NCBI GenBank assembly: GCA_050700895.1
Contig: JBOHEE010000411.1
Location: forward strand, 1-59,389
Length of the DNA: 59,389 nt
Direction of reading: 5' to 3'
Source of the DNA: Nitriliruptorales bacterium
Lineage (GTDB): Bacteria > Actinomycetota > Nitriliruptoria > Nitriliruptorales > JAHWKO01
The notes beneath the pieces are model-generated. The model was not told the origin of the DNA, searched no databases, and was given only the letters and a program-made list of their open reading frames with translations. Positions 2,999 through 52,072 of this stretch are shown piece by piece. A program made the position numbers and the translations under genes. Each line of letters begins with the position of its first letter. Position 1 is the stretch's first letter.

Positions 2999-3522
2999 CA
3001 CGCACCTCCGAACGCGGTCGCGTCCCCGAGCAGCTCCCGGAGACGGTCGAGACCGCGTGAAACCTGGGACTTCACCGTGCCCACGCTGACGCCGAGCATC
3101 TCGGCCGCCTGCGCCTCGGAGAGGTCCTCGTAGTAGCGGAGCACGATCGCGGCGCGCTGCCGGTCCGGCAGGCGCTGGAGCGCCTGCCACACGGCGTCGT
3201 GGTCCGCGGCCTGCTCGTCGTGGAGGCGGACGCCCCGCTCGTCACCGGCCCGGCGCTCGCCCTCGCGGATCTCCAGCGCCCGGCGCCGGCCGCGGCTGTT
3301 GACCTGGTTCACGACCGCGCGCCGGAGATAGGGGCCGACGTCGCGGACGCGGCCCCGTTCCCACTGTCGCCAGACCTTCGCGAAGGCCTCCGCTACGACA
3401 TCCTCCGCGGCGTGCGGATCCCCGGTCAGCAGCCAGGCGAGCCGGACAGCGCGCCGATGGTGAGCGCTGTAGACGTCCGCGAACGACGTCGCGGCGCCAT
3501 CAGCCCGAAAGACGCTCGACAC
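2998..3522 (-). CDS. ECF-type sigma-70 family RNA polymerase sigma factor
   Basis: The C-terminal 174 aa of ORF 2998..3990 carry region 2 (DVVAEAFAKVWRQW) and region 4 HTH (RAAIVLRYYEDLSEAQAAEMLGVSVGTVKSQVSRGLDRLR). GTG at 3522 is chosen as start. The upstream 156 aa are Arg/Gly-rich junk. Confidence 0.85.
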   Translation of the reverse strand: MSSVFRADGAATSFADVYSAHHRRAVRLAWLLTGDPHAAEDVVAEAFAKVWRQWERGRVRDVGPYLRRAVVNQVNSRGRRRALEIREGERRAGDERGVRLHDEQAADHDAVWQALQRLPDRQRAAIVLRYYEDLSEAQAAEMLGVSVGTVKSQVSRGLDRLRELLGDATAFGGA

Positions 3523-3683
3523 ACGGGTCGCCACTCGTCTTCGACGCCACCGCGGGGTTCCCCGCCGCGTGCGTCCCTCCACCCGAACTGACGCGCACAC
3601 CGCCTGGAAGGTTGAGACGGATCTGCGCGCGGCGGAGGGTAGGGCGAGTACGGAACGCAGCGGACGGTCGACGCGGCCTACGC

Positions 3684-5720
3684 CTACGACGTGGCCGCCC
3701 CCTCCTCTGCCGCCTCCTCGTCCTCGGCCGGCACCGGCATGTCGAGGTGGCGGCCGTGCCACTCGAGCACGATCTGGAAGCGGTCGCGGCGATGCTTCGG
3801 CGCCCCCGAGCGCGAGAGCTCGTGACCCTCGTCTGGGAAGCGGACGAGCTCGACCTCGGTTCCGTGCCGCTTCAGCATCATGTAGAACTGTTCCGCCTGC
3901 TCGATCGGGCAGCGCCAGTCGTGCTCGGAGTGGAGGAGGAGCGTCGGGGTCGTGACGCGATGGGCGCGCGAAACCGGGCTCGCCGCCCACAGGAGCTCGA
4001 AGTCCTCAGGCAGCTGGGCGTCGAGGTACATGCGGTCGAAGAAGGCGCCGATGTCCGAGGTGCCCGAAAACGAGACCCACGACAGGAGCCCCCGCTCGAC
4101 GATCGCGGAGCGCCAGCGATCCTCGCGGCCGATGACGTGGGCGGTGGCAAAGCCTCCGTAGGAGCCGCCCATGACCCCCATTCGCTCGGGGTCGAGGCGG
4201 TCGGAGCGGGCAAGCGCGGCGTCGACCGCGCGGCGCAGGTCGTTGAGGTCCGGCGGGTCCTCCTCGTGCCAGACCTTGACCGCGCCACGGGCGAAGTCGC
4301 GCCCGCGGCCGCTCGAACCGCGCGGGTTCGTGGCGAGCACCGCGTACCCGGCCCCGGCGTAGACCTGGAACTCGTCGAAGAAGCCCCAGCCGTACTGCGT
4401 CGCGGGCCCCCCGTGGATGTTGAACAGCAGCGGCACGCGGTCCCCGCCCTCGGGCAGGTACAGCCAGGCGTCGATCTCCTCCCCGCCGGACTCGTAGGTG
4501 AAGTGCTCGCCGGCGACGAAGGCGAGCTCGTCGCGGGCCGTCGCGTTCACCGCCGTGAGGGCACGCTCCTCGCCGTCCTCCCACCAGTGGAGCTCGCCGG
4601 GATCGTCGTTGGCGGTGGCCACGAACGCGAACGCCGAGCCGTCCTCGCGGACCGTCGCGCCCGTGATCGTGCGTCGGCTTCCGCCGGCGAGCTCCTCGAC
4701 CTTGCCGTCAGGGTCGACGGCGACGACCCGGTTCACACCCCGGTCCTCGAGCAGGGTGAGGAAGCGGTCGCCCCTCCACTGCGGTCCGGACGGTCCCGCC
4801 GCGTCGAACGGCAGCGCGTCGCGGTCGAGGTGTCCGGTGAGGTCGGTCAGCGACCCGTCCTCCTCGATGCGGCGGACCGACAGGGGCGCCGGCCAGCCCC
4901 ACCGGTCCGTGAGGCCGGTCACGTGTGCGACGCCGTCGGGGCGGAAGGTGACGTGACCCCAGATTCCGACGTCGGTGAGGGCGGTGACCTCCCGGTCGTC
5001 GAGCGTCACGAGGAAGACCTGGTTGCCGCCATCGACCTCGCGCTCGTCGTGCCGCTCGGAGAGGAAGGCGATCGCGAGGCCGTCAGGACGCCACACCGGC
5101 TCGCTCTCGTCGAAGTCGCCCGGTGTGAGGAGGTCGGGCTCCTCCTGGCCCGACGGGTCCACGAGGCAGAGGTGCTTGCGCCGCTCGTGGATCCAGCCGA
5201 GGTTGTCGCCGCGGTACGGCAGGCGGGTGATGCGCCGCGGCCGCCGCTTGCGCTCGTCCTCCTCGAGGTCGGCGAGCTCCTCGACCCAGCTGTTGCCGAC
5301 GGCCACGAGTCGGCTGCCGTCCGGCGACCACTCCGCTCCCCCCGCGCCGAGGGGGAAGTCCGTCACGATCCGGGCCTCCCCGCCGGCGGCCGGCATCACC
5401 GCGACCTGCGGCTTGCTGTCCTCCTTCTCGCTCTTGCGGACGAACACGAGCCGGCCGCCGTCGGGCGACCACCGCGGAGCGCCGTCGCTCGGACCGTGGG
5501 TGAAGGGACGCGCATCCTCCCCGTCCCAGAGCCAGACCCTCGAGACGTAGCGGTCCTCCTCGAGGTCGACCTCGCGGACGACGAAGGCGACCTGCGCCCC
5601 GTCGGGATGCATCTGCGGCTCGGTGAGCGTGCGCAGCCGCGCGAGATCTCCCGTCCTCACCGATGGCCTCCTGCGGTCGGGGCGGGGGACGCTAGTGGCT
5701 ACGCTCGGCCGCGTGACCAC
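3684..5720 (-). CDS. S9-family serine peptidase (prolyl oligopeptidase / acylaminoacyl-peptidase type) with N-terminal beta-propeller
   Basis: 678-aa ORF. Nucleophile elbow GGSYGG, WSPDG propeller repeats and a C-terminal alpha/beta-hydrolase region. The start is uncertain: a GTG at 5660 would avoid overlap with metG. Confidence 0.85.
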   Translation of the reverse strand: MVTRPSVATSVPRPDRRRPSVRTGDLARLRTLTEPQMHPDGAQVAFVVREVDLEEDRYVSRVWLWDGEDARPFTHGPSDGAPRWSPDGGRLVFVRKSEKEDSKPQVAVMPAAGGEARIVTDFPLGAGGAEWSPDGSRLVAVGNSWVEELADLEEDERKRRPRRITRLPYRGDNLGWIHERRKHLCLVDPSGQEEPDLLTPGDFDESEPVWRPDGLAIAFLSERHDEREVDGGNQVFLVTLDDREVTALTDVGIWGHVTFRPDGVAHVTGLTDRWGWPAPLSVRRIEEDGSLTDLTGHLDRDALPFDAAGPSGPQWRGDRFLTLLEDRGVNRVVAVDPDGKVEELAGGSRRTITGATVREDGSAFAFVATANDDPGELHWWEDGEERALTAVNATARDELAFVAGEHFTYESGGEEIDAWLYLPEGGDRVPLLFNIHGGPATQYGWGFFDEFQVYAGAGYAVLATNPRGSSGRGRDFARGAVKVWHEEDPPDLNDLRRAVDAALARSDRLDPERMGVMGGSYGGFATAHVIGREDRWRSAIVERGLLSWVSFSGTSDIGAFFDRMYLDAQLPEDFELLWAASPVSRAHRVTTPTLLLHSEHDWRCPIEQAEQFYMMLKRHGTEVELVRFPDEGHELSRSGAPKHRRDRFQIVLEWHGRHLDMPVPAEDEEAAEEGAATS

Positions 5721-42325: not shown

Positions 42326-42334
42326 CCAGGAGGC

Positions 42335-42470
42335 TGAGGAGCTCCTGACGGTCGCGACGGAACGCTCGGTCGACCTCATCGTCATCGGGGCGCAGGCACG
42401 GGCACACGAGGGGCGGCCGTTCCTCGGCCACGGGACCGAGATGCTGCTGTCGGGCACCCGCCCGCCGTGG
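42335..42470 (+). pseudogene. Possible C-terminal remnant of a universal stress protein gene
   Basis: The +2 frame reads AEELLTVATERSVDLIVIGAQARAHEGRPFLGHGTEMLLSGTRPP. This resembles a USP C-terminus (aDLIVvGsrG...llGSv...vl...PV). No N-terminal part is present. Confidence 0.3.
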
Positions 42471-42546
42471 CGCTCCGCGAGGTGCGCTGGAGCGCGCGCG
42501 CCAGGCCGTTCTCGTCGCCGTCTTCCCGCAGCGGCGGTGACTAGTA

Positions 42547-42654
42547 GTCGGGGACTACGTTCCGCGCAGCCGCGAGAGACCTGCGAGGACAGCTCTTCTG
42601 GGGGGCTGCAGCCCCCCAGACCCCCTGGCTCCACTCCTTGAGTCCCCGAGCCCC
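42547..42654 (+). repeat. Palindromic intergenic repeat element, copy A (long form)
   Basis: GTCGGGGACTACGTTCCGCGCAGCCGCGAGAGACCTGCGAGG...CCACTCCTTGAGTCCCCGAGCCCC. It shares 5' and 3' modules with copies B and C. It contains a perfect 22-bp palindrome CTGGGGGGCTGCAGCCCCCCAG at 42598..42619. It lies between convergent gene ends. Confidence 0.8.
42598..42619. terminator. Perfect 22-bp GC-rich palindrome, candidate bidirectional terminator
   Basis: CTGGGGGGCTG/CAGCCCCCCAG lies between the 3' ends of the GATase gene (+) and the CvpA-CAP gene (-). There is no U tract on either side, as is common in high-GC actinobacteria. Confidence 0.4.
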
Positions 42655-42657
42655 TAG

Positions 42658-43716
42658 CTAGCCGTTGAACTCCTGGCTCACCATGAGCCCGAACGGACCG
42701 GCGTAGACGCCGATCCCGATGCGTGTGAACTCCCGGTTCAGGATGTTCGCCCGGTGTCCCGGGGAGTCCATGAGGCCTCGATGGGCCCGCTCGGCCGTCG
42801 GGGCCAACGCGAGGTTCTCGCCGGCGACGTCGAAGCGGATCCCCGCGGCGCGCATGCGATCGAAGGGATCGGTGCATCCCGGAGCGTCACTGCCCTCCGT
42901 GCGACACGGGGGGGTGGTGTGAGCGAAGAAGCCCTCGAGGTACATCTGGCGCGAGTAGGCCCGGGCGACGTCTCTGAGCGCTGGGTCGTGCTCCACCGGA
43001 TCCAGTCCGGCCTCGGCCCGGGCCTGGTTGAGGAGGGCGAGGATCTCGTCCTCGGCGGCGGGTGCCACCGAGATCTCGCTCTCGCTCGCCGGCGGGAACG
43101 TGTAGACGGTGCCGTTGGGCTGCTCCGGGGGGGCGTCGACCGGCGGGAGGTTCTCGCAGAGAGAGACCCCGTGGGAGAGCGTGAGGCCGTCGGAGATCTG
43201 CTGGCTGACCCAGAGCAGCGCGGGACGGGCGAGGGTCGCCACGCGCTCGGCTCCGCCGTGGAGGGGGTTCGCGGTGGAGATGAATCCGCGTGCGACCGCG
43301 CTCTCGCAGACCGGCCGGGCCAGCGCCGCCCGCGCGCCGGGAGCGGTGACCCCCAGCAGCAGCACCGCGGTGACGAGGAGCACGCTCCAGGTCGTCGCGA
43401 GGATGCTCCCGCCGACACCGTCGAGGATGAGGGCCGCGTGGGGGAGCCGCCGGACGTGCCCGCCGACGCTTCTCGCTACCACGATCGAGGCGATGAACAC
43501 GATCCCGAACACGCCGATCCCGGTCAGGGCAGCCGTCCACCCCGACGTGACCCCGCGGATCGCCGGCCAGGTGACCGTCGCCACCACGATGGCCAGGATC
43601 AAGCCGAGGAGCTCGACCCCCTCCACGACGAGACCACGACGCCACCCCCGGTAGGCGTAGACCGCCACGGAGGCGAGCAGCAGAAGGCTCAGGACCACGG
43701 TGGAGAATGATGCCAC
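42658..43716 (-). CDS. CvpA-like membrane domain fused to CAP/SCP (YkwD-like) extracellular domain
   Basis: Four N-terminal TM helices. The C-terminal region EILALLNQARAEAGLDPVEHDPALRDVARAYSRQM...GENLA...HRGLMDSPGHRANIL...IGIGV is a typical CAP-domain signature. Confidence 0.7.
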   Translation of the reverse strand: MASFSTVVLSLLLLASVAVYAYRGWRRGLVVEGVELLGLILAIVVATVTWPAIRGVTSGWTAALTGIGVFGIVFIASIVVARSVGGHVRRLPHAALILDGVGGSILATTWSVLLVTAVLLLGVTAPGARAALARPVCESAVARGFISTANPLHGGAERVATLARPALLWVSQQISDGLTLSHGVSLCENLPPVDAPPEQPNGTVYTFPPASESEISVAPAAEDEILALLNQARAEAGLDPVEHDPALRDVARAYSRQMYLEGFFAHTTPPCRTEGSDAPGCTDPFDRMRAAGIRFDVAGENLALAPTAERAHRGLMDSPGHRANILNREFTRIGIGVYAGPFGLMVSQEFNG

Positions 43717-43734
43717 GCCCCGCCGTGGTTGCCG

Positions 43735-44010
43735 TCAGCCACCGGCGACCGCCGGGACGATGGACACGACGTCCCCGTCGCCGACGGTCGTGTCGAGCCC
43801 GTCCTGGTAGCGGACGTCCTCGTCGCGAACGAAGACGTTGACGAACCGGCGCAGCTCGCCGTCCTCGTCGAGGAGGCGCTCGGTGATGTCCGGATGCGCC
43901 CGGGCCAGCTTCGCGATCACCTCCCGGACGTCGGCGCCCTCCACCTCGACGGTGGCAGCGCCGCCGGTGTGCTTGCGGAGTGGGCTCGGGATGCGGACGG
44001 TCGCGGTCAT
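43735..44010 (-). CDS. MoaD/ThiS-family sulfur-carrier protein ending in Gly-Gly (CysO/MetO-like)
   Basis: 91 aa. MTATVRIPSPLRKHTGGAATVEVEG...FVNVFVRDEDVRY...GDGDVVSIVPAVAGG*. ATG 44010 overlaps the upstream stop as ATGA. The rest of the 656-aa track ORF is artefact. Confidence 0.85.
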   Translation of the reverse strand: MTATVRIPSPLRKHTGGAATVEVEGADVREVIAKLARAHPDITERLLDEDGELRRFVNVFVRDEDVRYQDGLDTTVGDGDVVSIVPAVAGG

Positions 44011-45284
44011 GACTGTTCTCCTGCGAATGTGAGCTGCTCCTCGAACGCCGTCAACGACGGTTCGATGGTGAACGTGGGGCCGACCCGCCCGCTGAGCGCG
44101 TCGAGGGTCTTCAGCCCGTGCCCGGTGACGAACGCGACCACCCGCTCGTCGCGCCCGATGACCCCCTCGCGGGCGAGCTTCGCGAGCGTGCCGATCGTGA
44201 CGCCGCCGGCGGTCTCGGCGAACAGGCCCTCGGTCTCGGCGAGCAGGCGGATCGCCGAGACGATCTCCTCGTCGGTCACCGCTGCGATGGCGCCGCCGGC
44301 CTCCCGCACGGCTCGGACCGCGTAGGTCCCGTCCGCCGGATCGCCGATCGCCAGGGACCGGGCGATCGTGTCCGGCTTCACCGGCCGGATGCGGTCGGTC
44401 CCCTCCGCGAACGCGGTGGCGACCGGGCTGCAGCCAGCCGCCTGGGCGCCGGAGATGCGCACGTCGTGCGGCGCGACGAGGTCGTGCGCGACGAGCTCCC
44501 CGAGCGACTTGTGGACCTTGACGAGCTGGGCGCCGGACGCGATCGGCACGACGATGTGGTCGGGGAGCTCCCAACCGAGCTGTTCGGCCACCTCGAAGCC
44601 GAGCGTCTTCGAGCCTTCGGCGTAGTAGGCACGGAGGTTCACGTTCACGAACCCCCAGCCGCGGTCGTCGGCGATCTCGGCGCAGAGGCGGTTGACGTCG
44701 TCGTAGCTGCCCTTCACGGCCACGACCGTGGCCCCGTACACCGCCGACGTGGCGATCTTCGCCTGCTCGAGGTCGTGCGGGATGACGACGTAGGCGGGCA
44801 TCCCCGCCTTCGCGGCACCCGCCGCGACCGCGTTCGCGAGGTTGCCGGTCGAGGCGCAGGCGAGCGTCGTGATGCCGAGCGACTGCGCGGCGTTGAGCGC
44901 CACCGCGACCACACGGTCCTTGAACGAGCCCGAGGGGTTGCGCGTGTCGTCCTTGAGCCAGAGCTCGCCGAGCCCGAGCTGCTCGGCGAGCCGGGGGGCG
45001 GGGACGAGCGGCGTGAAGCCGGCGCCGAGATCGGCAGGGACGGGCTGCTCCTCGAGGATCGGCAGGAGCGGGGCGTAGCGCCAAAGGTTCCGCGGGCCGG
45101 CCTCGATCGCGGCACGGTCGACCGTCCGGTCGTCGCGGTAGGCGACCTCCAGCGGCCCGAAGCACTCGCCGCAGACGTGTACGGGTCCGAGCTCCTCGGG
45201 TGTGCCGCACTCGCGGCAGCGGAGCCCGTCGATGGTTGGGCTGAGCGTGTCCAGGGCTGACTCCTGTCCTGTCGTGGAGGACAC
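44007..45284 (-). CDS. PLP-dependent threonine-synthase-family enzyme with N-terminal zinc ribbon (MetM-like candidate)
   Basis: LRCRECGTPEELGPVHVCGECFGPLEV, then PLP lysine motif NPSGSFKDRVV and GNLANAV. GTG 45284 is chosen downstream of the riboswitch terminator. Confidence 0.85.
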   Translation of the reverse strand: MSSTTGQESALDTLSPTIDGLRCRECGTPEELGPVHVCGECFGPLEVAYRDDRTVDRAAIEAGPRNLWRYAPLLPILEEQPVPADLGAGFTPLVPAPRLAEQLGLGELWLKDDTRNPSGSFKDRVVAVALNAAQSLGITTLACASTGNLANAVAAGAAKAGMPAYVVIPHDLEQAKIATSAVYGATVVAVKGSYDDVNRLCAEIADDRGWGFVNVNLRAYYAEGSKTLGFEVAEQLGWELPDHIVVPIASGAQLVKVHKSLGELVAHDLVAPHDVRISGAQAAGCSPVATAFAEGTDRIRPVKPDTIARSLAIGDPADGTYAVRAVREAGGAIAAVTDEEIVSAIRLLAETEGLFAETAGGVTIGTLAKLAREGVIGRDERVVAFVTGHGLKTLDALSGRVGPTFTIEPSLTAFEEQLTFAGEQS

Positions 45285-45325
45285 GGGCGACCCGGCACCC
45301 TCCCTGTCGGACAGGTCCCGGCACC

Positions 45326-45352
45326 AGAACGGGCCTCCCGCCTGGGAGGCCC
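45326..45352 (-). terminator. Riboswitch expression-platform terminator hairpin
   Basis: The minus strand reads GGGCCUCCC-AGGC-GGGAGGCCC followed by GUUCUGGU. It lies between the SAM-I aptamer and the start codon. Confidence 0.65.
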
Positions 45353-45378
45353 GCTGAGTTGACGTCGCGACACGCCCG

Positions 45379-45489
45379 CTCATCGTCTCCCGCTGGCGCG
45401 GAAGCCGGGTTTGGCACCGTCCCCGTCGCGTCCACGGGCGGTTGCCGAGGCTTCGTCGGGCCCGAGCCCTCCACCTCTCCGGATGAGTT
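45379..45489 (-). ncRNA. SAM-I (S-box) riboswitch aptamer
   Basis: The minus strand reads AACUCAUCCGGAGAGGUGGAGGGCUCGGGCCCGACGAAGCCUCGGCAACCGCCCGUGGACGCGACGGGGACGGUGCCAAACCCGGCUUCCGCGCCAGCGGGAGACGAUGAG. P1 is CUCAUC/GAUGAG. The conserved blocks GAGGG..GGCCCGA.GA.GC....GCAACC and GGUGCCAA..CC.GC are all present. Confidence 0.9.
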
Positions 45490-45637
45490 GCGCTGCGCAC
45501 GGTGCCACCATGCCGCTGTCAGCGCAACTCGGTTCCCGATCCCGTCCCGATCACATCGCGCAGTCGACACTCGGACGACGCCCTCGATCGGTACGCTCCG
45601 GAGCGACGGGGGGCCAGTCTCGTCCAGGAGACGGCAG

Positions 45638-46078
45638 ATGGCGAGCAGAGCCAAGGTGCTGGTCGTCGACGACGAGCCCGACGTCCTCCTTCTCTGCCGC
45701 GTCAACCTCGAGTTCGAGGGCTACGAGGTCTTGGAGGCCGGCGACGGCGAAGAGGCGATGGAGAAGGTCCACGATCAGGGGCCCGACGTCGTCCTCCTCG
45801 ACGTGATGATGCCGAAGATGGACGGCTGGCAGGTCCTCGCGGCATTGAAGGGCGACCACCGCACGGCCGACATCCCGGTCGTTATGCTGACCGCGAAGGT
45901 CCAGGACCAGGACCAGATCCGCGGCTGGTCGGGCGGCGCCGCGGACTACATCACCAAGCCCTTCTCGCCGCTGTCGCTGTCGCTGGTGCTCGAGAACGTC
46001 CTGAACAACGACCCCGAGGAGGAGGAGCGGCGCCGCCGCGCCATCCTCGAGAAGCTCCAGCTGCTCCAGAAAGGCTAG
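45638..46078 (+). CDS. Single-domain (CheY-like) response regulator
   Basis: KVLVVDDEPDV...PDVVLLDVMMPKMDGW...PVVMLTAK...ADYITKPF carries the full receiver acidic pocket, phospho-Asp, Thr and Lys. There is no output domain. Confidence 0.88.
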   Translation: MASRAKVLVVDDEPDVLLLCRVNLEFEGYEVLEAGDGEEAMEKVHDQGPDVVLLDVMMPKMDGWQVLAALKGDHRTADIPVVMLTAKVQDQDQIRGWSGGAADYITKPFSPLSLSLVLENVLNNDPEEEERRRRAILEKLQLLQKG

Positions 46079-46152
46079 GGGTTCGGGGGCTCAAGAAGTG
46101 GAGCGCAGCCACGCAAGCCTCGCGCGGCTGCGCGGAACGCAGCCCCCGACTC
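46078..46152 (-). repeat. Palindromic intergenic repeat element, copy B (short form, inverted orientation)
   Basis: The reverse complement GAGTCGGGGGCTGCGTTCCGCGCAGCCGCGCGAGGCTTGCGTGGCTGCGCTCCACTTCTTGAGCCCCCGAACCCC aligns with the 5' and 3' modules of A and C. Termini are inverted: GT(T)CGGGGGCT / AGCCCCCGAC. It lies between convergent gene ends. Confidence 0.8.
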
Positions 46153-46161
46153 ATCTGATCC

Positions 46162-46746
46162 CTAGCCCGAGTAGTCCTCGCCGATCACGACGTGCACGTT
46201 CACGGAGGACGTGAGGTTGTTCGGCTTCTCCTCCACGACCGCGAAGCCGTACTGCGCGGCGACGTGCCGCGCCGCCTCCTCGTGGCCTGGGCTCCAGAAG
46301 ACCGTCGTCCGCTCGTAGACCCGGACGGCCCGGTTCACGGCGACGACCCGGTAGCCGTCGCTCCTCGCACGGTCCGCGAACCCGCCTGCCGCCGTCCCCG
46401 CCTCGGTCGCGTCGAGGACCTGCATCGAGACCGACGCCGGGTCGACCTCGCCGCCCGTCGGGCTCTCGGTCGGTGAGGACGCCTCCGTCGGCGTGGGGCT
46501 CCCGGGTTCAGGAGTGGCGGGAGCCGTCGCTTGGGGATTGGGGGACGTCGGCTCGGTCGTCGCCGGCGCGTCGCCCTCGGTCGGGCTGGCGGCGACGATC
46601 GGTCCCGTCGGCTCCTGCCCGATGCGGCCGAGTCCCCAGAAGGCGCCGGCGACGACGGCGATCAGCGCGACGCCCGCCGCCAGGTGGGCCGACACGGACC
46701 TCGCGAAGCTCCGGTCCCCCGGTGGGGTGTGCCTCGCGTCGGACAC
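46162..46746 (-). CDS. LytR_C-domain membrane-anchored protein
   Basis: N-terminal TM, a Pro/Thr/Glu-rich linker, then C-terminal VSMQVLDATEAGTAAGGFADRARSDGYRVVAVNRA...TTVFW, typical of the LytR C-terminal domain. Confidence 0.65.
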   Translation of the reverse strand: MSDARHTPPGDRSFARSVSAHLAAGVALIAVVAGAFWGLGRIGQEPTGPIVAASPTEGDAPATTEPTSPNPQATAPATPEPGSPTPTEASSPTESPTGGEVDPASVSMQVLDATEAGTAAGGFADRARSDGYRVVAVNRAVRVYERTTVFWSPGHEEAARHVAAQYGFAVVEEKPNNLTSSVNVHVVIGEDYSG

Positions 46747-46755
46747 GGTTCCTCG

Positions 46756-47043
46756 CTAGAGGTCGACGCCGAGGCGTCGCGCGGCTCGTTGACGCTGCCG
46801 GGCGGCGCGCATGCGGCGCAGGCGTTTCACGAGCATCGGGTCGTGCTCGAGGGCGGCCTCGGTGTCGATGAGGTCGTTGAGGACCTGGTAGTAGCGGGTC
46901 GAGGAGATCTCGAAGCGCTCCTTGATCCCCTCCTCCTTCGCGCCGGCGAACTTCCACCACTCCCGCTCGAACTCCAGGATGTCGCGGTCACGCCCGTCGA
47001 GGCCTCCTGCCTCACGCTCGTGGCTGCCGTTCGCGTCGCTCAT
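46756..47043 (-). CDS. DUF3263-family protein
   Basis: ATG 47043. DRDILEFEREWWKFAGAKEEGIKERFEISSTRYYQVLNDLIDTEAALEHDPMLVKRLRRMR matches the DUF3263 pattern. Confidence 0.8.
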   Translation of the reverse strand: MSDANGSHEREAGGLDGRDRDILEFEREWWKFAGAKEEGIKERFEISSTRYYQVLNDLIDTEAALEHDPMLVKRLRRMRAARQRQRAARRLGVDL

Positions 47044-47153
47044 CGACGTACTCCGCTCGAAGCCGTTCACGACGAGCATCGCAGCAGAATCACATCCGTG
47101 CAACTACGTAGGCCCCATCCGTTGCTGTCGCAGGGGACCAGTACGTTCGGGTC

Positions 47154-47663
47154 ATGGACGAGGTGCTCTTTCCTGGACCATCCGGACGCGATCCGACGCC
47201 GCCCAAGGCGCGCTCGAACGGCGCCAAACCGAGGCGCGAGCATCCGAAGGACGTCGGTGATACCACCACCGCGCACGTCCTCGCCCGCCTCAGCGACCGC
47301 TACCCATACGTCTACGTCCCCTGGGGCGAGAACACCCGCACCGATCTCCTCGTCGAAACCGAGGAGGGCGACTTCATCCGCATCCAGTGCAAGACGGGCC
47401 GCCTCCGCAACGGCGCCATCACGTTCCCCACCTGCAGCGTCACATACCACCACCCGAACAATCGGGGCACGGATTACTACCGCCACCACTATCGAGGACA
47501 GGCGGACCTGTTCGGTGTGTACTGTCCCGAGACCGACGCCGTCTACCTCGTTCCCGTGGATGAGGTCGGAGTCCGATCGGCGGCCCTGCGAGTCGCTCCG
47601 ACTCGGAACAACCAAGGTGCGCGGATACGTTGGGCCGAGGACTACAAACTCCCGCCGGGTTAG
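47154..47663 (+). CDS. Stand-alone PD-(D/E)XK endonuclease of the 'group I intron-associated' type
   Basis: HPKDVGDTTTAHVLARLSDRYPYVYVPWGENTRTDLLVETEEGDFIRIQCKTGRLRNGAITF...YRGQADLFGVYCPETDAVYLVPV carries the D...E.K core. GC content is lower than the flanks. The stop codon lies 10 nt inside the tRNA-Thr gene. Confidence 0.7.
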   Translation: MDEVLFPGPSGRDPTPPKARSNGAKPRREHPKDVGDTTTAHVLARLSDRYPYVYVPWGENTRTDLLVETEEGDFIRIQCKTGRLRNGAITFPTCSVTYHHPNNRGTDYYRHHYRGQADLFGVYCPETDAVYLVPVDEVGVRSAALRVAPTRNNQGARIRWAEDYKLPPG

Positions 47664-47726
47664 CTCAGTTGGCAGAGCACTCGTCTTGTAAACGAGAGCG
47701 CGCCGGTTCGATTCCGGCACCCGGCT
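47654..47726 (+). tRNA. tRNA-Thr (anticodon TGT), CCA not encoded
   Basis: GCCGGGTTAGCTCAGTTGGCAGAGCACTCGTCTTGTAAACGAGAGCGCGCCGGTTCGATTCCGGCACCCGGCT forms a 7/4/5/5 cloverleaf. Anticodon loop CTTGTAA. Confidence 0.95.
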
Positions 47727-47727
47727 C

Positions 47728-48621
47728 TCACACGGGGAAGATGCGGGCGAAGGTGTCGGCGAAGACGCCGAGGGCAACGAACCAGGTCCCGATCACGACG
47801 AGCACCCATCCGCCCCACCTCTTGACGGTTGGACCGGCCGCCCGGACCCGCTGGACCACCGCCTCCTGGGCGACCGCGACGCCGAGCGAAGCAGCGAAGA
47901 GCAGGACCACCAGGACCGCCGCGGCGACCCCGAAGGCGAAGAAGGCGACGGCGAACCCGCCCGCGGTGAGCGACTCGCCCGCCAGACCGGCGAGCATGGG
48001 ACCCGTTCAGCCGAAGCCGGCGGCGAGGTAGCCGAACCCGAAGACCGCGTTGCCGACGATCGGGCGCTCCCGGCGCAGGCGCGCCTGCCGCTTGAGGAAG
48101 CCGTGGATCGCCGGCTCGGCGGCGCGGAAGCTGATCCCGATCCGCTCGGTCTGGACGAGGCCGAGCACGATCAGCAGGCCGCCGACCACGACCCGGATGA
48201 TGCGCCCGGGCGTGCTCGTGAACGTCACCGCCCCGGCGACGCCGCCACCGCCGAGCGCGATCAGCGCGCCGAGGCCGACGACGAAGACGACTGCGCCGAC
48301 CGAGAGTGCGGTGGCGAACACGACCGCACGGCGCAGGCGCCGCCCGCGAGGCTCGTCCGCGCCGGTCTGCCGCGCGAGCAGCGAGGCGAGCAGCGGGAAG
48401 GAGCACGGCGAGAAGAAGGCCGCGAAGCCGGTCGCGCCGGCAAGAGCGAGAAGCCCGATTCCTGCCGCGCGCGGGAGATCGAACCGCGGAAAGACGACGT
48501 AGCCCACGTAGCCGGCGACGCCCGCCACCGCCACCGCCGCCGTGAGCAGCACGTAGCGGACCGCACCCGGCCCCGAGTTCCCGAGTGGGGACAGGTCACG
48601 ACGCCCCTCGGTGTCGGGCAC
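47728..48621 (-). CDS. CcdA/DsbD-family thiol-disulfide transmembrane electron-transfer protein with in-frame TGA at the second redox-Cys position (candidate selenocysteine; alternatively a nonsense pseudogene)
   Basis: Track ORFs 48007..48621 and 47728..47997 share one frame and are separated only by TGA-ACG-GGT-CCC. The first family Cys motif FFSPCSFPLL is present. The second motif reads AAGFG-[TGA]-TGPMLAG, against AGWTPCTGPILAA in B. subtilis CcdA (from memory). Confidence 0.6.
47977..47995 (-). promoter_or_regulatory. SECIS-like hairpin 12 nt downstream of the in-frame UGA
   Basis: mRNA nt 15-33 counted from the U of UGA read GCUCGCC-GGUCU-GGCGGGC. This is a 7-bp stem including one U-G pair, with loop GGUCU. 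G23/U24 and U17 fall at the same positions as in the E. coli fdhF SECIS as I recall it. Confidence 0.5.
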
Positions 48622-48725
48622 AGGCTCGCTCCGTCACGGCTCACCGCCAGTATGGAGGTTCCAGCCGCTGGAGGGTCAAATGGCGCCGACCCATCGTTCG
48701 CCTGGGACTCCGGGCGACCGACCCA

Positions 48726-49121
48726 CTACCTGCCGATGATCACGCAGACCTCGTCCTCGGTGCAGTCGGCGGGGTCGAGCTCGCTAGCCCGCGCGGCGAG
48801 CTCCTCGAGGTGCTGGCGGGTCCGTCGCAGCTCGTCGATCGCGGCGTCGACCTCGCGGATCTGCTCGTCCACCAGGGCGGTGACGTGGCCACACGGGGCG
48901 CGGCCCGCGTCACGGACCTCGAGGATGCCCCTGACCTGCGCGAGCGTGAACCCGGCGCGCTTCGCCGCATGCACGAAGTCCAGCCGACGGAGCGTCTCGT
49001 CGGCGAAGTCCCGGTACCCGCCGGCGGTCCGGCCGGGCGCGGGGATCAGGCCGATGTCCTCGTAGTAGCGGATCGTCTTCCGCGGCGTCCCGCTGCGCTC
49101 CGCCAGCTCGCCGATCAGCAC
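48726..49121 (-). CDS. MerR-family (heavy-metal-sensor-like) transcriptional regulator
   Basis: LIGELAERSGTPRKTIRYYEDIGLIP...GYRDF is the MerR HTH. A coiled-coil dimerisation helix follows. Three Cys (positions 77, 120 and 126 by my count) sit where metal-binding MerR/ZntR-type proteins carry ligands. GTG start at 49121. Confidence 0.88.
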   Translation of the reverse strand: MLIGELAERSGTPRKTIRYYEDIGLIPAPGRTAGGYRDFADETLRRLDFVHAAKRAGFTLAQVRGILEVRDAGRAPCGHVTALVDEQIREVDAAIDELRRTRQHLEELAARASELDPADCTEDEVCVIIGR

Positions 49122-49159
49122 GTGTCACCTCCGGCTTGACGTGTCACCTCCGGCTTGAC
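49122..49159. repeat. Perfect 19-bp tandem duplication abutting the merR-family start codon
   Basis: GTGTCACCTCCGGCTTGAC occurs at 49122..49140 and again at 49141..49159. Each copy holds the minus-strand GGAGG Shine-Dalgarno and a plus-strand CTTGAC hexamer. Confidence 0.9.
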
Positions 49160-49186
49160 CTTCCAGCTTACTGGAGGGTCCACACT
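49155..49186 (+). promoter_or_regulatory. MerR-type long-spacer promoter/operator for the thioredoxin-fold gene
   Basis: -35 TTGACC (49155..49160). An imperfect palindrome CCTTCCAG-CTTA-CTGGAGGG (49159..49178) sits inside a 19-20-nt spacer. The -10-like element is CACACT (49181..49186). The ATG at 49194 implies a leaderless or near-leaderless mRNA. Confidence 0.55.
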
Positions 49187-49193
49187 CCGCGGC

Positions 49194-49487
49194 ATGGACA
49201 TCACCGTGCTGCACGTGGACCAGTGCCCGAACACCGACGTCGCCCTCGCGAGACTCGACGACGTGCTCAAGCGGATCGGACGCGACGACGTCCGGGTGCT
49301 GACGCAACTCGTCGACTCCGAGCAGCAAGCCGAGGAATGCGGCCTCCGCGGCTCGCCGACGATCCTCGTCGACGGCATCGACGTCTCGAGCCCGCCGGGC
49401 ACGCCGATCATGTTCGCCTGCCGGGCCGGCCGGCCCGAGGACATCGTGCCGTCGGTCGACGAGCTCCTCCGCGCCCTCGGCGGCTAG
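49194..49487 (+). CDS. Small thioredoxin/glutaredoxin-fold protein with monothiol CPNT motif
   Basis: MDITVLHVDQCPNTDVALARL...CGLRGSPTILVDGIDV shows a beta-alpha-beta start, a CxxT active-site-like motif and a cis-Pro-type GSPT(I/L)LVDG. ATG 49194 is preferred over the track start at 49155. Confidence 0.55.
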   Translation: MDITVLHVDQCPNTDVALARLDDVLKRIGRDDVRVLTQLVDSEQQAEECGLRGSPTILVDGIDVSSPPGTPIMFACRAGRPEDIVPSVDELLRALGG

Positions 49488-50152
49488 GCCGCCGGAGCGA
49501 CGTAGACGAGTCGGGCGACGTCGACGCGGAGGGAGACCTCGCGGCCGTCGACCACCATCACGAAGCGGTCGCCCCGCCGTTTGGGCTCGACGACCGTCCC
49601 CGGCATCAGGCCCTGGCCGACGAGGGTCCGCATCGCGTCGATGTCGCCCTGGAGCTTCTCGGAGAGGCGCTCGATGCGCACCGGCGCCCCGAGCTCCGCC
49701 GCGGCGGCCAGGTTGCCAAGCGCCTCCGTCCGGCCCTCGTCACCGAGGCCCGGTATCGGGTTCCCGTGCGGGCACCGCTTTGGCTCGCCGAGCAACTCGA
49801 CGAGCTTGGACTCCACCTGGTCGGAGATCACGTGCTCCCAGCGGCACGCCTCCTCGTGGACCCGCTCCCACTCGAGCCCGATGACGTCGACGAGCAGACA
49901 CTCGGCCAGGCGGTGCTTGCGCATGACGCTGACCGCCAGTGCACGGCCCTCCTCGGTGAGCTCGAGGACGCGGTCATCGGAGAGGCCCAGGAGTCCCTCG
50001 TTCTCGAGGCGGGAGACGGTCTCGCTCACCGAAGGGGCGGAGAGGCCGAGCCGCTCCGCGAGCCGGGCGCGAATCGGGACGATCCCCTCCTCCTCCAGCT
50101 CCCAGACCGTCCGAACGTACATCTCCGTCGCGTCGATGAGGTCGGTCGTCAC
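49484..50152 (-). CDS. ideR: DtxR/IdeR-family metal-dependent transcriptional repressor
   Basis: TEMYVRTVWELEEEGIVPIRARLAERLGLSAPSVSETVSRLENEGL..., RKHRLAECLL, CRWEHV..., and a C-terminal SH3-like/FeoA domain. Confidence 0.9.
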   Translation of the reverse strand: MTTDLIDATEMYVRTVWELEEEGIVPIRARLAERLGLSAPSVSETVSRLENEGLLGLSDDRVLELTEEGRALAVSVMRKHRLAECLLVDVIGLEWERVHEEACRWEHVISDQVESKLVELLGEPKRCPHGNPIPGLGDEGRTEALGNLAAAAELGAPVRIERLSEKLQGDIDAMRTLVGQGLMPGTVVEPKRRGDRFVMVVDGREVSLRVDVARLVYVAPAA

Positions 50153-50329
50153 CCGTTTTCCTTCCGCCCCACGCCACGTCGTGTGCCCGAAAGGCAGAAG
50201 GCGAGGCTACACCGGGAGACGTCGATCAGGCGTTGCAGCCGGCGCCGACAGAACCAGCCGGTGCTAGCCCGCATCCCACTCCCATGGCCCGAACGCCACG
50301 ACCTTGACCCCAAACAGTGCGGAAAACGC

Positions 50330-50362
50330 GGCTAGCTGACGGCTAGCTGTCGGCTAGCTGGC
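50330..50362. repeat. Three tandem 11-bp units each containing the palindrome GCTAGC
   Basis: GGCTAGCTGAC GGCTAGCTGTC GGCTAGCTGGC. The last unit overlaps the stop codon of the sigH-like gene. The array lies ~180-210 bp upstream of ideR. Confidence 0.85.
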
Positions 50363-51004
50363 GGCCGACTGCTCGAGATGCTGCTCGAGCTTGCGCTTGA
50401 TGCGCTGGAGGGCGTTGTCCACGGACTTCACATGCCGTCCCAGCACCTCGGCGATCTCCTGGTAGCTGCGGCCCTCGACGTAGAGGTCGAGGACCTCGGC
50501 CTCGAGGCCTGACAGCAGGTCCGCGAAGATCGTCCGGAGCTGGGCGAACTCGTCGGCCGCGATCACCGTCTGGAGAGGATCGTCGGCTGTCTCGCAGGCG
50601 ACGAGCTCTCCGACCGTACGCTCCGATCCGGCCGACTGGCGCTTCTCGAGCGGGATGTAGGAGTTCAGCGGACCGTGCTTCTGGCGGGTCGCGGTCTTGA
50701 TCGCGGTGAGGATCTGCCGCGTGATGCAGAGGTCCGCGAACGACCGGAAGGCCGCGTCGTGACCGGGCTGATAGTCGCGGATGGCCTTGTAGAGGCCGAT
50801 CATGCCCTCCTGGACCACGTCCTCGCGGTCCCCGCCGACGAGGAAGTAGGTCCGCGCCTTCGCGCGAGCGAAACGGCGATAGCGCTCGAGAAGCTCGGCG
50901 ACGGCGAGGTCGTCGCCATCGCGGACGAGCTCGACGAGTTCCTCGTCGGTGGCCTCGGCAACGAGCACAGCTCTTCCCACACGGATGCTCGTGACGTCGC
51001 CCAC
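50354..51004 (-). CDS. Sigma-70 family sigma factor closely resembling Bacillus-type SigH
   Basis: FARAKARTYFLVGGDREDVVQEGMIGLYKAIRDY...FADLCITRQILTAIKTATRQKHGPLNSY...YVEGRSYQEIAEVLGRHVKSVDNALQRIKRKLE is near-colinear with my recollection of B. subtilis SigH. GTG 51004 follows GGAGG. Synteny rlmB-sigH. Confidence 0.85.
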   Translation of the reverse strand: MGDVTSIRVGRAVLVAEATDEELVELVRDGDDLAVAELLERYRRFARAKARTYFLVGGDREDVVQEGMIGLYKAIRDYQPGHDAAFRSFADLCITRQILTAIKTATRQKHGPLNSYIPLEKRQSAGSERTVGELVACETADDPLQTVIAADEFAQLRTIFADLLSGLEAEVLDLYVEGRSYQEIAEVLGRHVKSVDNALQRIKRKLEQHLEQSAAS

Positions 51005-51152
51005 TGGTCCTCCGGCTCCATCTTCGTCTCTGTGCAGTCCAAACGAGCGACCGCCGACGCGGTGACGCGCTGGACCGTGGATTCCCCTCCGGCGAAAACC
51101 ATAGCGAACCGTCGCTGGCCCGCCCGGGCCGAAGGCACCCATCCCCGTGTCA

Positions 51153-51300
51153 GTCGGGGGACTACGTGTCGCGCAGATCCGAGAGACTTGTGGGGAAAAC
51201 TCCCCATGTGGGCGGTCGGTTGGTCGGGGGGGACTACGTGTCGCGCAGCATCCGAGAGACTTGTGGGGCTGCGCTCGACCACTTGAGTCCCCCGAACCCC
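51153..51300 (+). repeat. Palindromic intergenic repeat element, locus C: partial copy C1 plus full copy C2 in tandem
   Basis: C1 (51153..~51214) reads GTCGGGGGACTACGTGTCGCGCAGATCCGAGAGACTTGTGGGGAAAACTCCCCA.... C2 (51223..51300) reads GTCGGGGGGGACTACGTGTCGCGCAGCATCCGAGAGACTTGTGGGGCTGCGCTCGACCACTTGAGTCCCCCGAACCCC. It ends 5 nt from the rlmB stop. Confidence 0.85.
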
Positions 51301-51304
51301 CCGG

Positions 51305-52072
51305 TCAGCCCGCGTCGCGGCGGCGACGCACCTCGTACAGAGCGATCGCGGCGGCTACGGAGGCGTTCAGGGAGCCGACCTTCCCCAGCATCGGCAATCT
51401 GACGAGCAGGTCACACCGCTCGGTGACGAGGCGAGAGAGCCCCCGGCCCTCGGCGCCGACGACGATCGCGACCGGCTCGGTCAGGAGCTCGCACTCGTAG
51501 AGCAGCGGTTCGGCCCCGGCAGCCAGGCCGACGGACCAGACCCGCCTGGTCGCAAGGAGCTCGAGCGCACGGGCGATGTTCGGAACCGCGGCGACCGGGA
51601 GGTGCGCGAGCGCACCGGCCGCCGCCTTCTCGACCGCCGGGGTCACGCTGGCGGTCCGCCGACGCGGCACGACGAGCCCGTGGGCACCGGCCGCCTCGGC
51701 AGTCCTGGCGATCGCACCGAGGTTGTGGGGATCGGTGATGCCGTCGAGCGCGACGAGCAGGGCCGCCTCCCCCGGCGCCGGCAGGAGATCCTCCAACTCG
51801 ACGAGACGGAAGGCCTCGGCCAGGGCCACCACCCCCTGGTGGGCCACGCCGCCCGCGAGGTCGTCGAGCCGCTCGGCCGGCGAACCGTCGACCGGAACGC
51901 CGGCCTCCGCGGCGAGACGGCGGATGTCCGCGACGACGGGGCTCTCTTCGCGCTGCGGCGCGACGAGGATCCGCTCCACGCGGGTCGCCGCGCGGAGCAG
52001 CTCGCGCACGGGATGGAGTCCGGGGACGATCCGACGGTCGTCGGCGCCGGCCCGTCCGCGCGCGGATGCCAC
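51305..52072 (-). CDS. rlmB: 23S rRNA (guanosine2251-2'-O)-methyltransferase RlmB (SpoU/TrmH family)
   Basis: GLHPVRELL..., LDGITDPHNLGAIARTAEAAGAHGLV, IVVGAEGRGLSRL..., PMLGKVGSLNASVAAAIALYE. Confidence 0.9.
   Translation of the reverse strand: MASARGRAGADDRRIVPGLHPVRELLRAATRVERILVAPQREESPVVADIRRLAAEAGVPVDGSPAERLDDLAGGVAHQGVVALAEAFRLVELEDLLPAPGEAALLVALDGITDPHNLGAIARTAEAAGAHGLVVPRRRTASVTPAVEKAAAGALAHLPVAAVPNIARALELLATRRVWSVGLAAGAEPLLYECELLTEPVAIVVGAEGRGLSRLVTERCDLLVRLPMLGKVGSLNASVAAAIALYEVRRRRDAG

What the first reader, a model, noticed from the sequence alone, without database searches (positions are those of the whole stretch)
42547..51300. Family of palindromic intergenic repeat elements (REP/MITE-like): four copies at three loci within 9 kb
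- **Copies.**
  - A: 42547..42654 (+).
  - B: 46078..46152 (inverted orientation).
  - C1: 51153..~51214 (+).
  - C2: 51223..51300 (+).
- **Shared modules.** All share a 5' module GTCGGGGGACTACGT(G/T)(T/C)CGCGCAG...CGAGAGAC(C/T)TG(C/T)G(A/G)GG. A, B and C2 also share a 3' module GCTGCGCTC..CCACT(T/C)CTTGAG(T/C)CCCCGA(A/G)CCCC.
- **Structure.** The termini are inverted (GTCGGGGGACT / AGTCCCCCGAAC), so each unit can fold into a long hairpin.
- **Variation between copies.**
  - A carries an extra perfect 22-bp palindrome.
  - C1 carries a TGGGGA-AAAC-TCCCCA hairpin and lacks the 3' module.
  - C1 and C2 form a tandem dimer.
- **Location.** All copies sit strictly in intergenic DNA at gene 3' ends. 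A and B lie between convergent genes. C abuts the rlmB stop and precedes the sigH-like gene.
- **Coding.** No ORF is associated with them. The identical peptide RGCAERSPRL in two unrelated track ORFs is a by-product of the repeat.
- **Interpretation.** This looks like a genome-specific REP/MITE-type element or a family of terminator/sRNA modules.
Basis: seen in the sequence. Interest (0 to 1): 0.6.

Follow-up and report, generated by a model that had tools for sequence, protein, structure and literature searches.

The report
Gene-end palindromic hairpin repeat family
The four look-alike sequences are real copies of an apparently undescribed 80-base hairpin-forming DNA repeat, present about 185 times in this uncultured actinobacterium and found in none of the other genomes searched. 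It sits almost touching gene stop codons and is a new member of the known REP/TRIT class of gene-end repeats; its function is unproven.

Summary

- **Copy number.** The window's four copies belong to a family of at least 185 copies at 160 loci on 115 contigs of a 3.13-Mb, 71.5% GC actinobacterial MAG.
- **Structure.** The ~80-nt unit folds into a 26-pair interrupted hairpin. Its stems are kept by many independent compensatory changes. Its asymmetric loops (CTACGT, GAGAGAC, CTnCTTGAG) are 90-100% conserved.
- **Position.** 82% of loci have a coding stop codon within a few bases of an element end, against 6.5% of random positions.
- **Orientation.** Orientation relative to the gene is random (38 sense, 42 antisense).
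- **What it lacks.** It has no target-site duplication and no U-tract. The genome holds no RAYT gene, and no parent IS was found.
- **Age.** Dispersed copies are old (nearest neighbours 84% identical on average, 92% at most). Tandem array units are younger (up to 98%).
- **Distribution.** It is absent from all 142 other genomes of its class, from 185,000 species-representative genomes, and from JGI metagenomes.

Best reading: a lineage-specific REP/TRIT-like gene-end hairpin module. It was copied around the genome in the past and is now kept for its fold.

A lead from earlier scan notes was tested. Seven AbiEi-DUF559 nuclease genes exist here, and at least five of the seven are flanked by palindromes of their own (three on both sides). 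None is bracketed by this family.

This is a new member of a known kind.

The parts
42545..42656 (+). Copy A. This is the long variant (112 nt): a normal 5' half and 3' end, with the 3' strand of the inner stem replaced by an extra G/C hairpin.
   Evidence: nhmmer hit. R1 gives 36.6 bits over 42540-42657. The same variant occurs at C296, C46, C6, C34, C194 and C337.
42597..42620 (.). 24-bp perfect palindrome TCTGGGGGGCTGCAGCCCCCCAGA inside copy A. It is the hallmark of the long subfamily.
   Evidence: Self reverse-complement BLAST hit, 100% over 24 nt. Shared by at least 7 dispersed copies.
46076..46156 (-). Copy B, a canonical full unit. It fills the whole gap between two convergent genes.
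   Evidence: nhmmer 68.4 bits. R1 83.5 bits. Fold -45.5 kcal/mol, z = -3.3. Identical in the Logan contig.
46076..46078 (+). TAG stop of the response-regulator-like gene 45488-46078. It overlaps the C-rich tail of copy B.
46162..46164 (-). Stop codon of the LytR_C gene 46162-46746(-). It lies 11 nt from the first paired base of copy B.
51150..51209 (+). Copy C1, a truncated unit. It has the 5' half (model positions 5-49, 51150-51195), then a private hairpin TGGGGA-AAAC-TCCCCA (51191-51206). It has no 3' module.
   Evidence: nhmmer partial hit of 30.5 bits; sequence. R1 does not find it at E <= 1.
51221..51301 (+). Copy C2, a canonical full unit in tandem with C1. It ends 3 nt before the rlmB stop codon (51305-51307, minus strand), so it is antisense to rlmB.
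   Evidence: nhmmer 64.4 bits. R1 74.8 bits. rlmB identified by orthologues.
42658..42660 (-). Stop codon of gene 42658-43716(-), 1-3 nt after the end of copy A.

Best explanation
This is a lineage-specific, non-coding, interspersed palindromic repeat of the REP/TRIT type, a 'gene-end hairpin module'.

**Shown**
- An ~80-nt unit is present at least 185 times.
- It was copied to unlinked sites. Derived variants, such as the long A-type, are themselves multi-copy.
- It is still duplicating locally into tandem arrays.
- It occupies the few bases behind stop codons in either orientation.
- Its 26-pair interrupted hairpin is preserved by many independent compensatory substitutions, while specific unpaired motifs stay nearly invariant.

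**Inferred mechanism**
- When the abutting gene is transcribed, the element becomes the 3' end of the mRNA on either strand.
- It then forms a long imperfect duplex that shapes or protects that 3' end. It could be an RNase III substrate, as now proposed for mycobacterial TRIT and Neisseria Correia repeats. It could also be a barrier to 3' exonucleases, as for E. coli REP. Either way it would insulate convergent genes.
- It does not act as a classical U-tract terminator.
- The asymmetric loops are conserved regardless of orientation. This suggests the folded DNA is, or was, recognised by a trans-acting protein that copied it.
- That protein is not identified. It is not a RAYT.
For: - **Copy number and spread:**
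- **Covariation:** 88.4% of cells are paired. 182 double-change cells are seen against 57 in shuffles (0 of 500 shuffles reach the observed value), and slid controls give 35-45% paired. The top mutual-information pairs are all Watson-Crick partners. There are 56 distinct four-pair haplotypes among 90 copies.
- **Stop-codon abutment:** 110 of 134 loci against 6.5% of random positions. The stop ends 1-6 nt before the stem on the 5' side (37 of 67). It ends 5-11 nt after the stem on the 3' side (50 of 73).
- **Orientation neutrality:** 38 sense to 42 antisense, with equal conservation of the two classes.
- **Age:** nearest dispersed neighbour 84% identical on average and 92% at most; array neighbours up to 98%.
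- **Propagated variant subfamily:**
- **Absence elsewhere:**
- **Insertion at rlmB-sigH:** relatives keep the gene pair without the element.
- **Precedents:** TRIT has 147 copies, is palindromic and bidirectional, has a narrow position at the stop codon and is genus-restricted (PMC3152330). TRIT and Correia repeats are reported as probable RNase III substrates that shape 3' ends (PMC13714241).
Against: - No transcript data could be obtained, so every RNA-level statement is inference.
- The conserved loops are asymmetric yet equally conserved in sense and antisense copies. A purely RNA-level function does not explain this.
- No mobilising enzyme was found:
  - no Y1/RAYT gene;
  - no target-site duplication;
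  - no AbiEi-DUF559 gene bracketed by this element;
  - the genes bracketed by two copies are ordinary housekeeping genes.
- Palindrome-templated repair could keep stems paired without selection.
- The genome is a 536-contig MAG, so copy number, arrays and any partner gene may be incomplete.
Confidence: 0.6

Rival explanations
1. REPIN/RAYT-like replicator with a different enzyme. On this view the element is the cognate DNA hairpin of one of the genome's AbiEi-wHTH + DUF559 (Vsr-like) nucleases, which recognises the conserved loops and copies or maintains it. This partly overlaps with the best explanation.
For: - Seven AbiEi_4 + DUF559 fusion genes are present.
- At least five of the seven are flanked by palindromes of their own. 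Those at C189, C341 and C399 have them on both sides.
- Some of those palindromes are small dispersed families: the C409 type on 11 contigs and the C341 type on 6.
- The loops are conserved independently of orientation.
- Earlier scan notes report the same pairing in other Actinomycetota. These are unchecked leads.
Against: - None of the seven genes is bracketed by, or adjacent to, this element. The nearest copy is 1.1 kb away, and the density of copies near them is not enriched.
- No paper in the searchable library describes such a pairing.
- No biochemistry exists for it.
Confidence: 0.2
2. Purely selfish non-autonomous transposon (MITE) mobilised in trans by a transposase. It has no host function and is found at gene ends only because insertions elsewhere are lethal.
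For: - It has 10-bp terminal inverted repeats.
- It has multi-copy derived subfamilies.
- It is absent from relatives.
- The genome's single IS110-family transposase gene lies in an IS inserted flush against a copy.
Against: - No target-site duplication.
- No IS shares its ends.
- No two dispersed copies are more than 92% identical, so there has been no recent transposition.
- Even so, pairing is 88% and the loops are 90-100% conserved. That indicates purifying selection, not decay.
- IS110-family elements are known, from my own knowledge, to target REP-like palindromes rather than to mobilise them.
Confidence: 0.1
3. Bidirectional intrinsic (factor-independent) transcription terminator that has been multiplied.
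For: - It is a strong G/C hairpin exactly at gene ends and between convergent genes.
- Canonical hairpin-plus-T-run sites are not enriched in the window: 5 found against 3.1 +/- 2.1 in shuffles.
Against: - No U-tract follows the hairpin on either strand.
- The stop codon is 1-11 nt from the stem. At that distance a terminating ribosome would melt the hairpin base. A terminator placed a few bp behind a gene is reported to be repressed in E. coli (PMC4824070 abstract).
- Mycobacterial RNA polymerase is reported to need a U-tract (PMC3993855, title and abstract).
- TRIT sites are reported to overlap little with real termination events (PMC13714241).
- A terminator-like hairpin with a T-run lies downstream of C1 (51124-51093, minus strand).
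Confidence: 0.08
4. Chance similarity of a few spacers, or an assembly artefact.
For: None.
Against: - 185 copies with E-values down to 1e-21.
- An independent assembly carries copy B.
Confidence: 0.01

Closest known systems
TRIT ('Tuberculosis Rho-independent terminator') motif of Mycobacterium (Gardner et al. 2011, PMC3152330; re-read as a probable RNase III substrate in PMC13714241)
   Same: - Both occur in high-GC Actinomycetota.
- Both have more than 100 dispersed copies of a hairpin conserved in sequence and structure.
- Both are palindromic and therefore bidirectional.
- Both have a very narrow position at the stop codon.
- Both are restricted to one lineage.
- Neither has an associated ORF.
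   Different: - There is no detectable sequence relationship. An exact-pattern scan of all species-representative genomes gave no mycobacterial hit.
- This element is longer (~80 nt against a ~50-nt span used for TRIT). It has two internal loops, a bulge and a C-rich 3' tail.
- It forms tandem arrays and a long subfamily.
- It is confined to a single known genus-level lineage.
REP / BIME and REPIN elements of Proteobacteria with their RAYT (Y1 HUH) genes
   Same: - Both are extragenic palindromes at gene 3' ends.
- Both have hundreds of copies.
- Both keep their stems by compensatory changes.
- Neither makes target-site duplications.
- Both occur singly and in clusters.
- Both are proposed to stabilise mRNA 3' ends.
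   Different: - No RAYT gene is present.
- The unit is one 80-nt hairpin rather than a 20-40-nt REP or an inverted REP doublet.
- The GTAG-like tetranucleotide (CTRC on the model strand) lies inside the hairpin, not at its foot.
Correia repeats (NEMIS) of Neisseria
   Same: - Both are ~100-nt elements with terminal inverted repeats.
- Both are transcribed with neighbouring genes.
- Both form a long duplex; in Correia repeats RNase III cuts it.
- Both are species-restricted.
   Different: - Correia elements make TA target duplications and carry an IHF site.
- Neither feature is seen here.
MIRU (mycobacterial interspersed repetitive units)
   Same: Both are actinobacterial tandem intergenic repeats of 46-101 bp at gene junctions.
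   Different: - MIRUs are co-oriented with operon genes and carry small ORFs that overlap the stop and start codons.
- This element has random orientation.
- Most of its periods are not multiples of 3.
- It is a hairpin.
- A true MIRU-like repeat was seen instead in relative G001.

Membership tests
REP/REPIN-RAYT system | A RAYT (Y1 HUH transposase, Pfam PF01797) gene in the genome, typically flanked by REPs | tested here: not met
   There is no PF01797 match in the own genome (93% complete). The control genomes do match.
REP/REPIN-RAYT system | High-copy extragenic imperfect palindromes whose stems are kept by compensatory changes | tested here: met
   185 copies. 88.4% of cells are paired, and no shuffle out of 500 reaches the observed covariation.
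REP/REPIN-RAYT system | Conserved GTAG-type tetranucleotide at the foot of the hairpin | tested here: inconclusive
   CTRC (GYAG on the other strand) is conserved at columns 20-23 of alignment A1, but it lies in an internal loop, not at the foot.
MITE | Terminal inverted repeats | tested here: met
   The 10-bp outer stem TCGGGGGnCT / AGn'CCCCCGA is 92% paired.
MITE | Target-site duplication of fixed length | tested here: not met
   The best k-mer match at any pair of offsets was 18 of 102 copies, against 7 expected.
MITE | A parent autonomous IS that shares the ends | tested here: not met
   - No split 5' and 3' halves flank longer DNA.
- The repeated long sequences are unrelated.
- The IS110 ends differ from the element's ends.
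- The assembly is fragmentary, so absence is not proof.
TRIT-like gene-end hairpin | Narrow positional distribution at annotated stop codons, bidirectional | tested here: met
TRIT-like gene-end hairpin | Sequence homology to the mycobacterial TRIT model | not tested
   The TRIT model was not available. An exact-pattern scan for this family's own conserved motif hit no Mycobacterium, and Rfam gave no hit.
TRIT-like gene-end hairpin | Transcript 3' ends or cleavage within the element | not testable with these tools
Canonical intrinsic terminator | G/C hairpin followed at once by a U-tract | tested here: not met
   The 3' flank is GAACCCCCT on one strand and unconserved, non-T-rich sequence beyond TGA on the other.
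MIRU | Co-orientation with genes, and unit ORFs that overlap the stop and start codons | tested here: not met
   38 sense to 42 antisense. Most spacings are not multiples of 3.
Palindrome + AbiEi-DUF559 nuclease pairing (lead from earlier scan notes; no such pairing found in the searchable paper library) | A nuclease gene bracketed by copies of the same repeat family | tested here: not met
   The seven paralogues are flanked by other sequences, at least five by palindromes of their own, and none by this element.

The most novel reading that the evidence does not exclude
The near-invariant asymmetric loops (CTACGT, GAGAGAC, CTnCTTGAG) sit on a covarying scaffold. They are conserved equally in both transcriptional orientations, and no RAYT is present.

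Together this may mark the element as the DNA-hairpin substrate of a still unidentified, non-HUH enzyme. The most plausible candidate is one of the AbiEi-wHTH/DUF559 (Vsr-like) nucleases. At least five of the seven paralogues in this same genome are flanked by palindromes of their own, three of them on both sides.

If so, this would be one instance of a second, RAYT-independent class of repeat-plus-enzyme partnership in Actinomycetota. The 185-copy family would be its most expanded member here, with its partner gene lost or unassembled.
Probability: 0.2. Interest if true: 0.7.

Novelty: new member of a known kind. Interest (0 to 1): 0.42.

Why it matters
How high-GC Actinomycetota with few canonical terminators define mRNA 3' ends is an open question.

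This family adds an independent, well-resolved example of a TRIT-like, stop-codon-abutting hairpin repeat outside Mycobacterium. It comes from a small class of Actinomycetota with 143 species-level genomes in the collection.

Its covariation is clean enough to give a testable structure, and model R1 finds at least 110 of the copies in this genome.

Several features make it a useful case for asking what enzyme spreads such repeats:
- old dispersed copies;
- a conserved fold;
- conserved asymmetric loops;
- no RAYT gene.

On the practical side, the arrays break short-read assemblies. All five 3-unit arrays lie at contig ends. The repeat also creates spurious ORFs.

Tried and rejected
- **Rfam** at permissive E-values gave no family for the repeats.
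- **RNAalifold de novo** failed to recover the hairpin on the MAFFT alignment. The structure was therefore specified by hand from mutual information and tested. A rival register with a 9-nt loop scored worse.
- **Target-site duplication** search over all offsets gave nothing consistent.
- **CTAG as insertion target** is explained by TAG stops preceded by C.
- **Orientation against GC skew or gene strand** showed no link. Skew here mainly tracks gene strand, so this is a weak test.
- **Strand asymmetry of G.T against A.C mismatches** is absent, apart from the conserved G.T in the apical stem.
- **Pattern hits** in other genomes and in metagenomes all lie in unrelated sequence; those read (L018, L019, L024) look like coding DNA. 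R1 scores are 20 bits or less.
- **Parent IS or repeated long sequences** are unrelated: a sigma-factor gene (C209) and a glutamyl-tRNA-synthetase-like gene (C35) present on two contigs, DUF222-like fragments, and one DDE-transposase-like fragment.
- **TnpB genes** (three) are not adjacent to copies.
- **Genes bracketed by two copies** are housekeeping: serC, ispG, metF, smpB, trxBA, ftsH and a bldC-like gene.
- **attC-like reading** was rejected by inspection. The core-site polarity is reversed, the copies are dispersed beside housekeeping genes, and there is no cassette array.
- **A paper search for the run id** found nothing.
Full report
**1. Observation.**
- The window is contig C411 of a 3.13-Mb, 536-contig genome of 71.5% GC. 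The genome is 93% complete and 0.6% contaminated.
- It carries eight WhiB genes, so it is an actinobacterium.
- It belongs to a small class for which 143 species genomes are held.

**2. Family size.**
- BLAST from the four copies, followed by three rounds of nhmmer, gave 185 hits on 115 contigs. Of these, 148 are near full length.
- The hits form 160 loci: 140 singletons, 15 doublets and 5 triplets.
- Arrays are always head-to-tail in one orientation, with periods mostly of 77-84 nt.
- All five triplets and two doublets sit at contig ends, so arrays are probably longer than assembled.
- The family covers 0.45% of the genome, about one copy per 17 kb. 93 copies are on the plus strand and 92 on the minus strand.
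- An independent Logan assembly of run SRR27067772 holds copy B identically and breaks inside it.

**3. Anatomy.**
- The consensus of 90 copies is nCnnnCAGTCGGGGGnCTACGTCTCGCGCnGCnnCGAGAGACTTGnGnGGCnGCGCTCGACTnCTTGAGnCCCCCGAACCCCCnn.
- The highest mutual-information column pairs are all Watson-Crick partners.
- The structure I tested has these parts, from the outside in:
  - a 10-bp outer stem (UCGGGGGnCU / AGn'CCCCCGA);
  - an internal loop;
  - a 3-bp helix;
  - a 2x2 or 3x3 internal loop, which distinguishes two subfamilies (GTCTCG...CTCGAC and GTTCCG...CTCCAC);
  - a 7-bp G/C helix;
  - a 2-nt bulge;
  - a 6-bp apical helix nnCGAG/CUUGnn closed by an AGA triloop.
- On this structure 88.4% of cells pair.
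- There are 182 cells with changes on both sides, against 57 +/- 8 in shuffles. No shuffle out of 500 reaches any of the five measures. Slid controls pair at only 35-45%.
- A register with a 9-nt loop is worse.
- Pair 19-74 alone shows AU 34, GC 30, CG 16 and UA 1.
- The four most variable pairs occur in 56 different combinations among 90 copies. The compensations are therefore many events, not a few inherited ones.
- The unpaired motifs are 90-100% conserved, and C64 and G67 are invariant.
- Apart from a conserved G.T in the apical stem, G.T (54) and A.C (75) mismatches are balanced. Neither strand is favoured.

**4. Variants.**
- Copy A belongs to a ~110-nt long subfamily. In it the 3' strand of the inner stem is replaced by an extra hairpin, CTGGGGGGCTGSAGCCCCCCAG.
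- At least seven dispersed copies share this derived state, and one of them (C337) has a further insertion.
- A third subfamily has CCAAG-GAGAGA-CTTGG at the apex.
- Half-copies such as C1 exist.
- Shared derived indels at unlinked loci show that copies descend from one another by copying.

**5. Genomic context.**
- Coding ORFs were recognised by codon-position GC.
- 110 of 134 loci that are not at contig edges have a stop codon within -11 to +31 nt of an element boundary on at least one side. 27 have one on both sides. The figure for random positions is 6.5%.
- Relative to the hairpin, the stop ends 1-6 nt before the first paired base on the 5' side in 37 of 67 cases.
- On the 3' side it ends 5-11 nt beyond the last paired base in 50 of 73 cases. 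There it overlaps the ACCCCC(T) tail.
- TAG is enriched among these stops: 47% against 26% genome-wide, p = 5e-8. A plausible cause is that CTAGTC, TGAGTC and CCCCCTA variants of the termini create stops.
- The element is sense to the abutting gene 38 times and antisense 42 times. The two classes are equally well conserved.
- There is no consistent target-site duplication. No U-tract follows the hairpin on either strand.

**6. Age and distribution.**
- Mean pairwise identity is 69%. The nearest dispersed neighbour is 84% identical on average and 92% at most.
- Adjacent array units average 85% and reach 98%.
- Dispersal is therefore old, and tandem duplication is recent.
- The covariance model R1 finds nothing in:
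  - 8 genomes of the same family, representing 6 other genera;
  - 32 genomes of the same order;
  - any of the 142 other genomes of the class.
- An exact pattern that matches 69 own copies hit only 4 places in 185,579 species-representative genomes and 20 in JGI metagenomes. All are single hits that R1 scores at 20 bits or less; the four places read (in L018, L019, L024) look like coding sequence.
- Relatives keep the rlmB-sigH gene pair without the element.

**7. Search for a mobilising or partner enzyme.**
- There is no Y1/RAYT transposase.
- Three TnpB genes are present, none adjacent to a copy.
- The only IS110-family transposase gene, with DEDD_Tnp_IS110 and Transposase_20 domains, belongs to a ~1.7-kb insertion. 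That insertion begins directly after the last bases of copy C377:2478-2557 and separates the copy from the stop of the convergent gene.
  - Flush adjacency has a chance probability of roughly 0.001-0.005.
  - From my own knowledge, it fits the habit of IS110/IS1111 elements of targeting REP-like palindromes.
  - It does not make the IS the mobiliser.
- Earlier notes of this scan describe similar stop-codon-hugging palindromes in other Actinomycetota and claim a partnership with AbiEi-DUF559 nucleases. I tested that lead here:
  - The genome has seven AbiEi_4 + DUF559 fusion genes.
  - At least five are flanked by palindromes of their own, three on both sides. Some of these palindromes form small dispersed families.
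  - None is bracketed by, or enriched for, the element studied here.
- Genes that lie between two copies are ordinary housekeeping genes.

**8. Interpretation.** The shown facts are these:
- dispersed copying in the past;
- local array growth now;
- a strict gene-end position;
- a fold kept by selection or by palindrome-templated correction;
- conserved loops;
- orientation neutrality;
- lineage restriction.

This is the profile of the mycobacterial TRIT motif (PMC3152330) and, more loosely, of REP and Correia repeats. Recent 3'-end atlas work treats those elements as shaping transcript 3' ends, with TRIT and Correia probably cut by RNase III (PMC13714241).

- I therefore infer that the element acts as a bidirectional mRNA 3'-end duplex.
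- A classical terminator role is unlikely. There is no U-tract, and the stop codon is too close to the stem.
- The orientation-independent conservation of asymmetric loops is not explained by an RNA role alone. It points to recognition of the DNA by an unknown protein.

**9. Limits.**
- The assembly is fragmentary.
- My gene calls are a GC3 heuristic that covers 78% of the genome as coding.
- TRIT homology was not tested with the TRIT model itself.

**10. Verdict.** The finding is real and well characterised. It is a new member of a known kind, and the mechanism by which it spreads is unresolved.

Noticed in passing
G000 contig C377:2478-4290 (not in the window): The genome's only IS110-family element is ~1.7 kb, with its transposase ORF at 2644-4004. 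It is inserted flush against the 3' end of an element copy (2478-2557), between that copy and the stop of the convergent gene. This suggests the repeat is a target for this IS, as REPs are for IS110/IS1111 relatives.
   Followed up: partly
G000 contigs C79:1452-2405, C189:2319-3254, C409:3185-4105, C341:1109-2032, C399:2919-3848, C13:2121-3014, C175:23415-24275: These are seven AbiEi_4 + DUF559 (Vsr-like nuclease) fusion genes. At least five are flanked by palindromes of their own, different from the studied family, and those at C189, C341 and C399 have them on both sides. The C409-type palindrome occurs on 11 contigs, the C341 type on 6 and the C399 type on 4.
   Followed up: partly
L062/L063 = G001:C1:77122-77428 and 99846-100000+ (relative, same family, other genus): A different ~81-nt tandem repeat (4 and at least 2 units) lies between genes. 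Each unit ends in GGAGGTGTACCCGTGA, that is, a Shine-Dalgarno sequence plus an overlapping GTG start and TGA stop. This is a MIRU-like in-frame repeat, not a relative of the element studied here.
   Followed up: no
L036 (G001, rlmB 3' end to sigH spacer), about 2240-2400 of the locus: A ~72-nt tandem duplication includes the last codons of rlmB.
   Followed up: no
window 42326-42546: A 220-nt stretch without a convincing ORF lies between the GATase-like gene (ends at 42325) and copy A. Window 42449-42496 is 96% identical to C202:3459-3506, so another small repeat is present.
   Followed up: no
window 51093-51124 (minus strand): A terminator-like hairpin followed by ATGGTTTTCG lies downstream of rlmB and copies C2/C1 and upstream of the sigH-like gene. 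It may be the real rlmB terminator.
   Followed up: no
window 45377-45489(-) and 47654-47726(+): A SAM-I riboswitch (62.5 bits) and a tRNA gene were found by the Rfam scan.
   Followed up: no
G000 contigs C92, C97, C437, C438, C475 (contig ends): A ~400-540-bp repeated sequence at contig ends encodes a DUF222/HNH-like N-terminal region (REP13E12-like gene family). It is probably a multi-copy gene that breaks the assembly.
   Followed up: no
G000 contig C435:5316-5980: A small bldC-like (excisionase-type HTH) gene is bracketed by two copies of the element in inverted orientation.
   Followed up: partly
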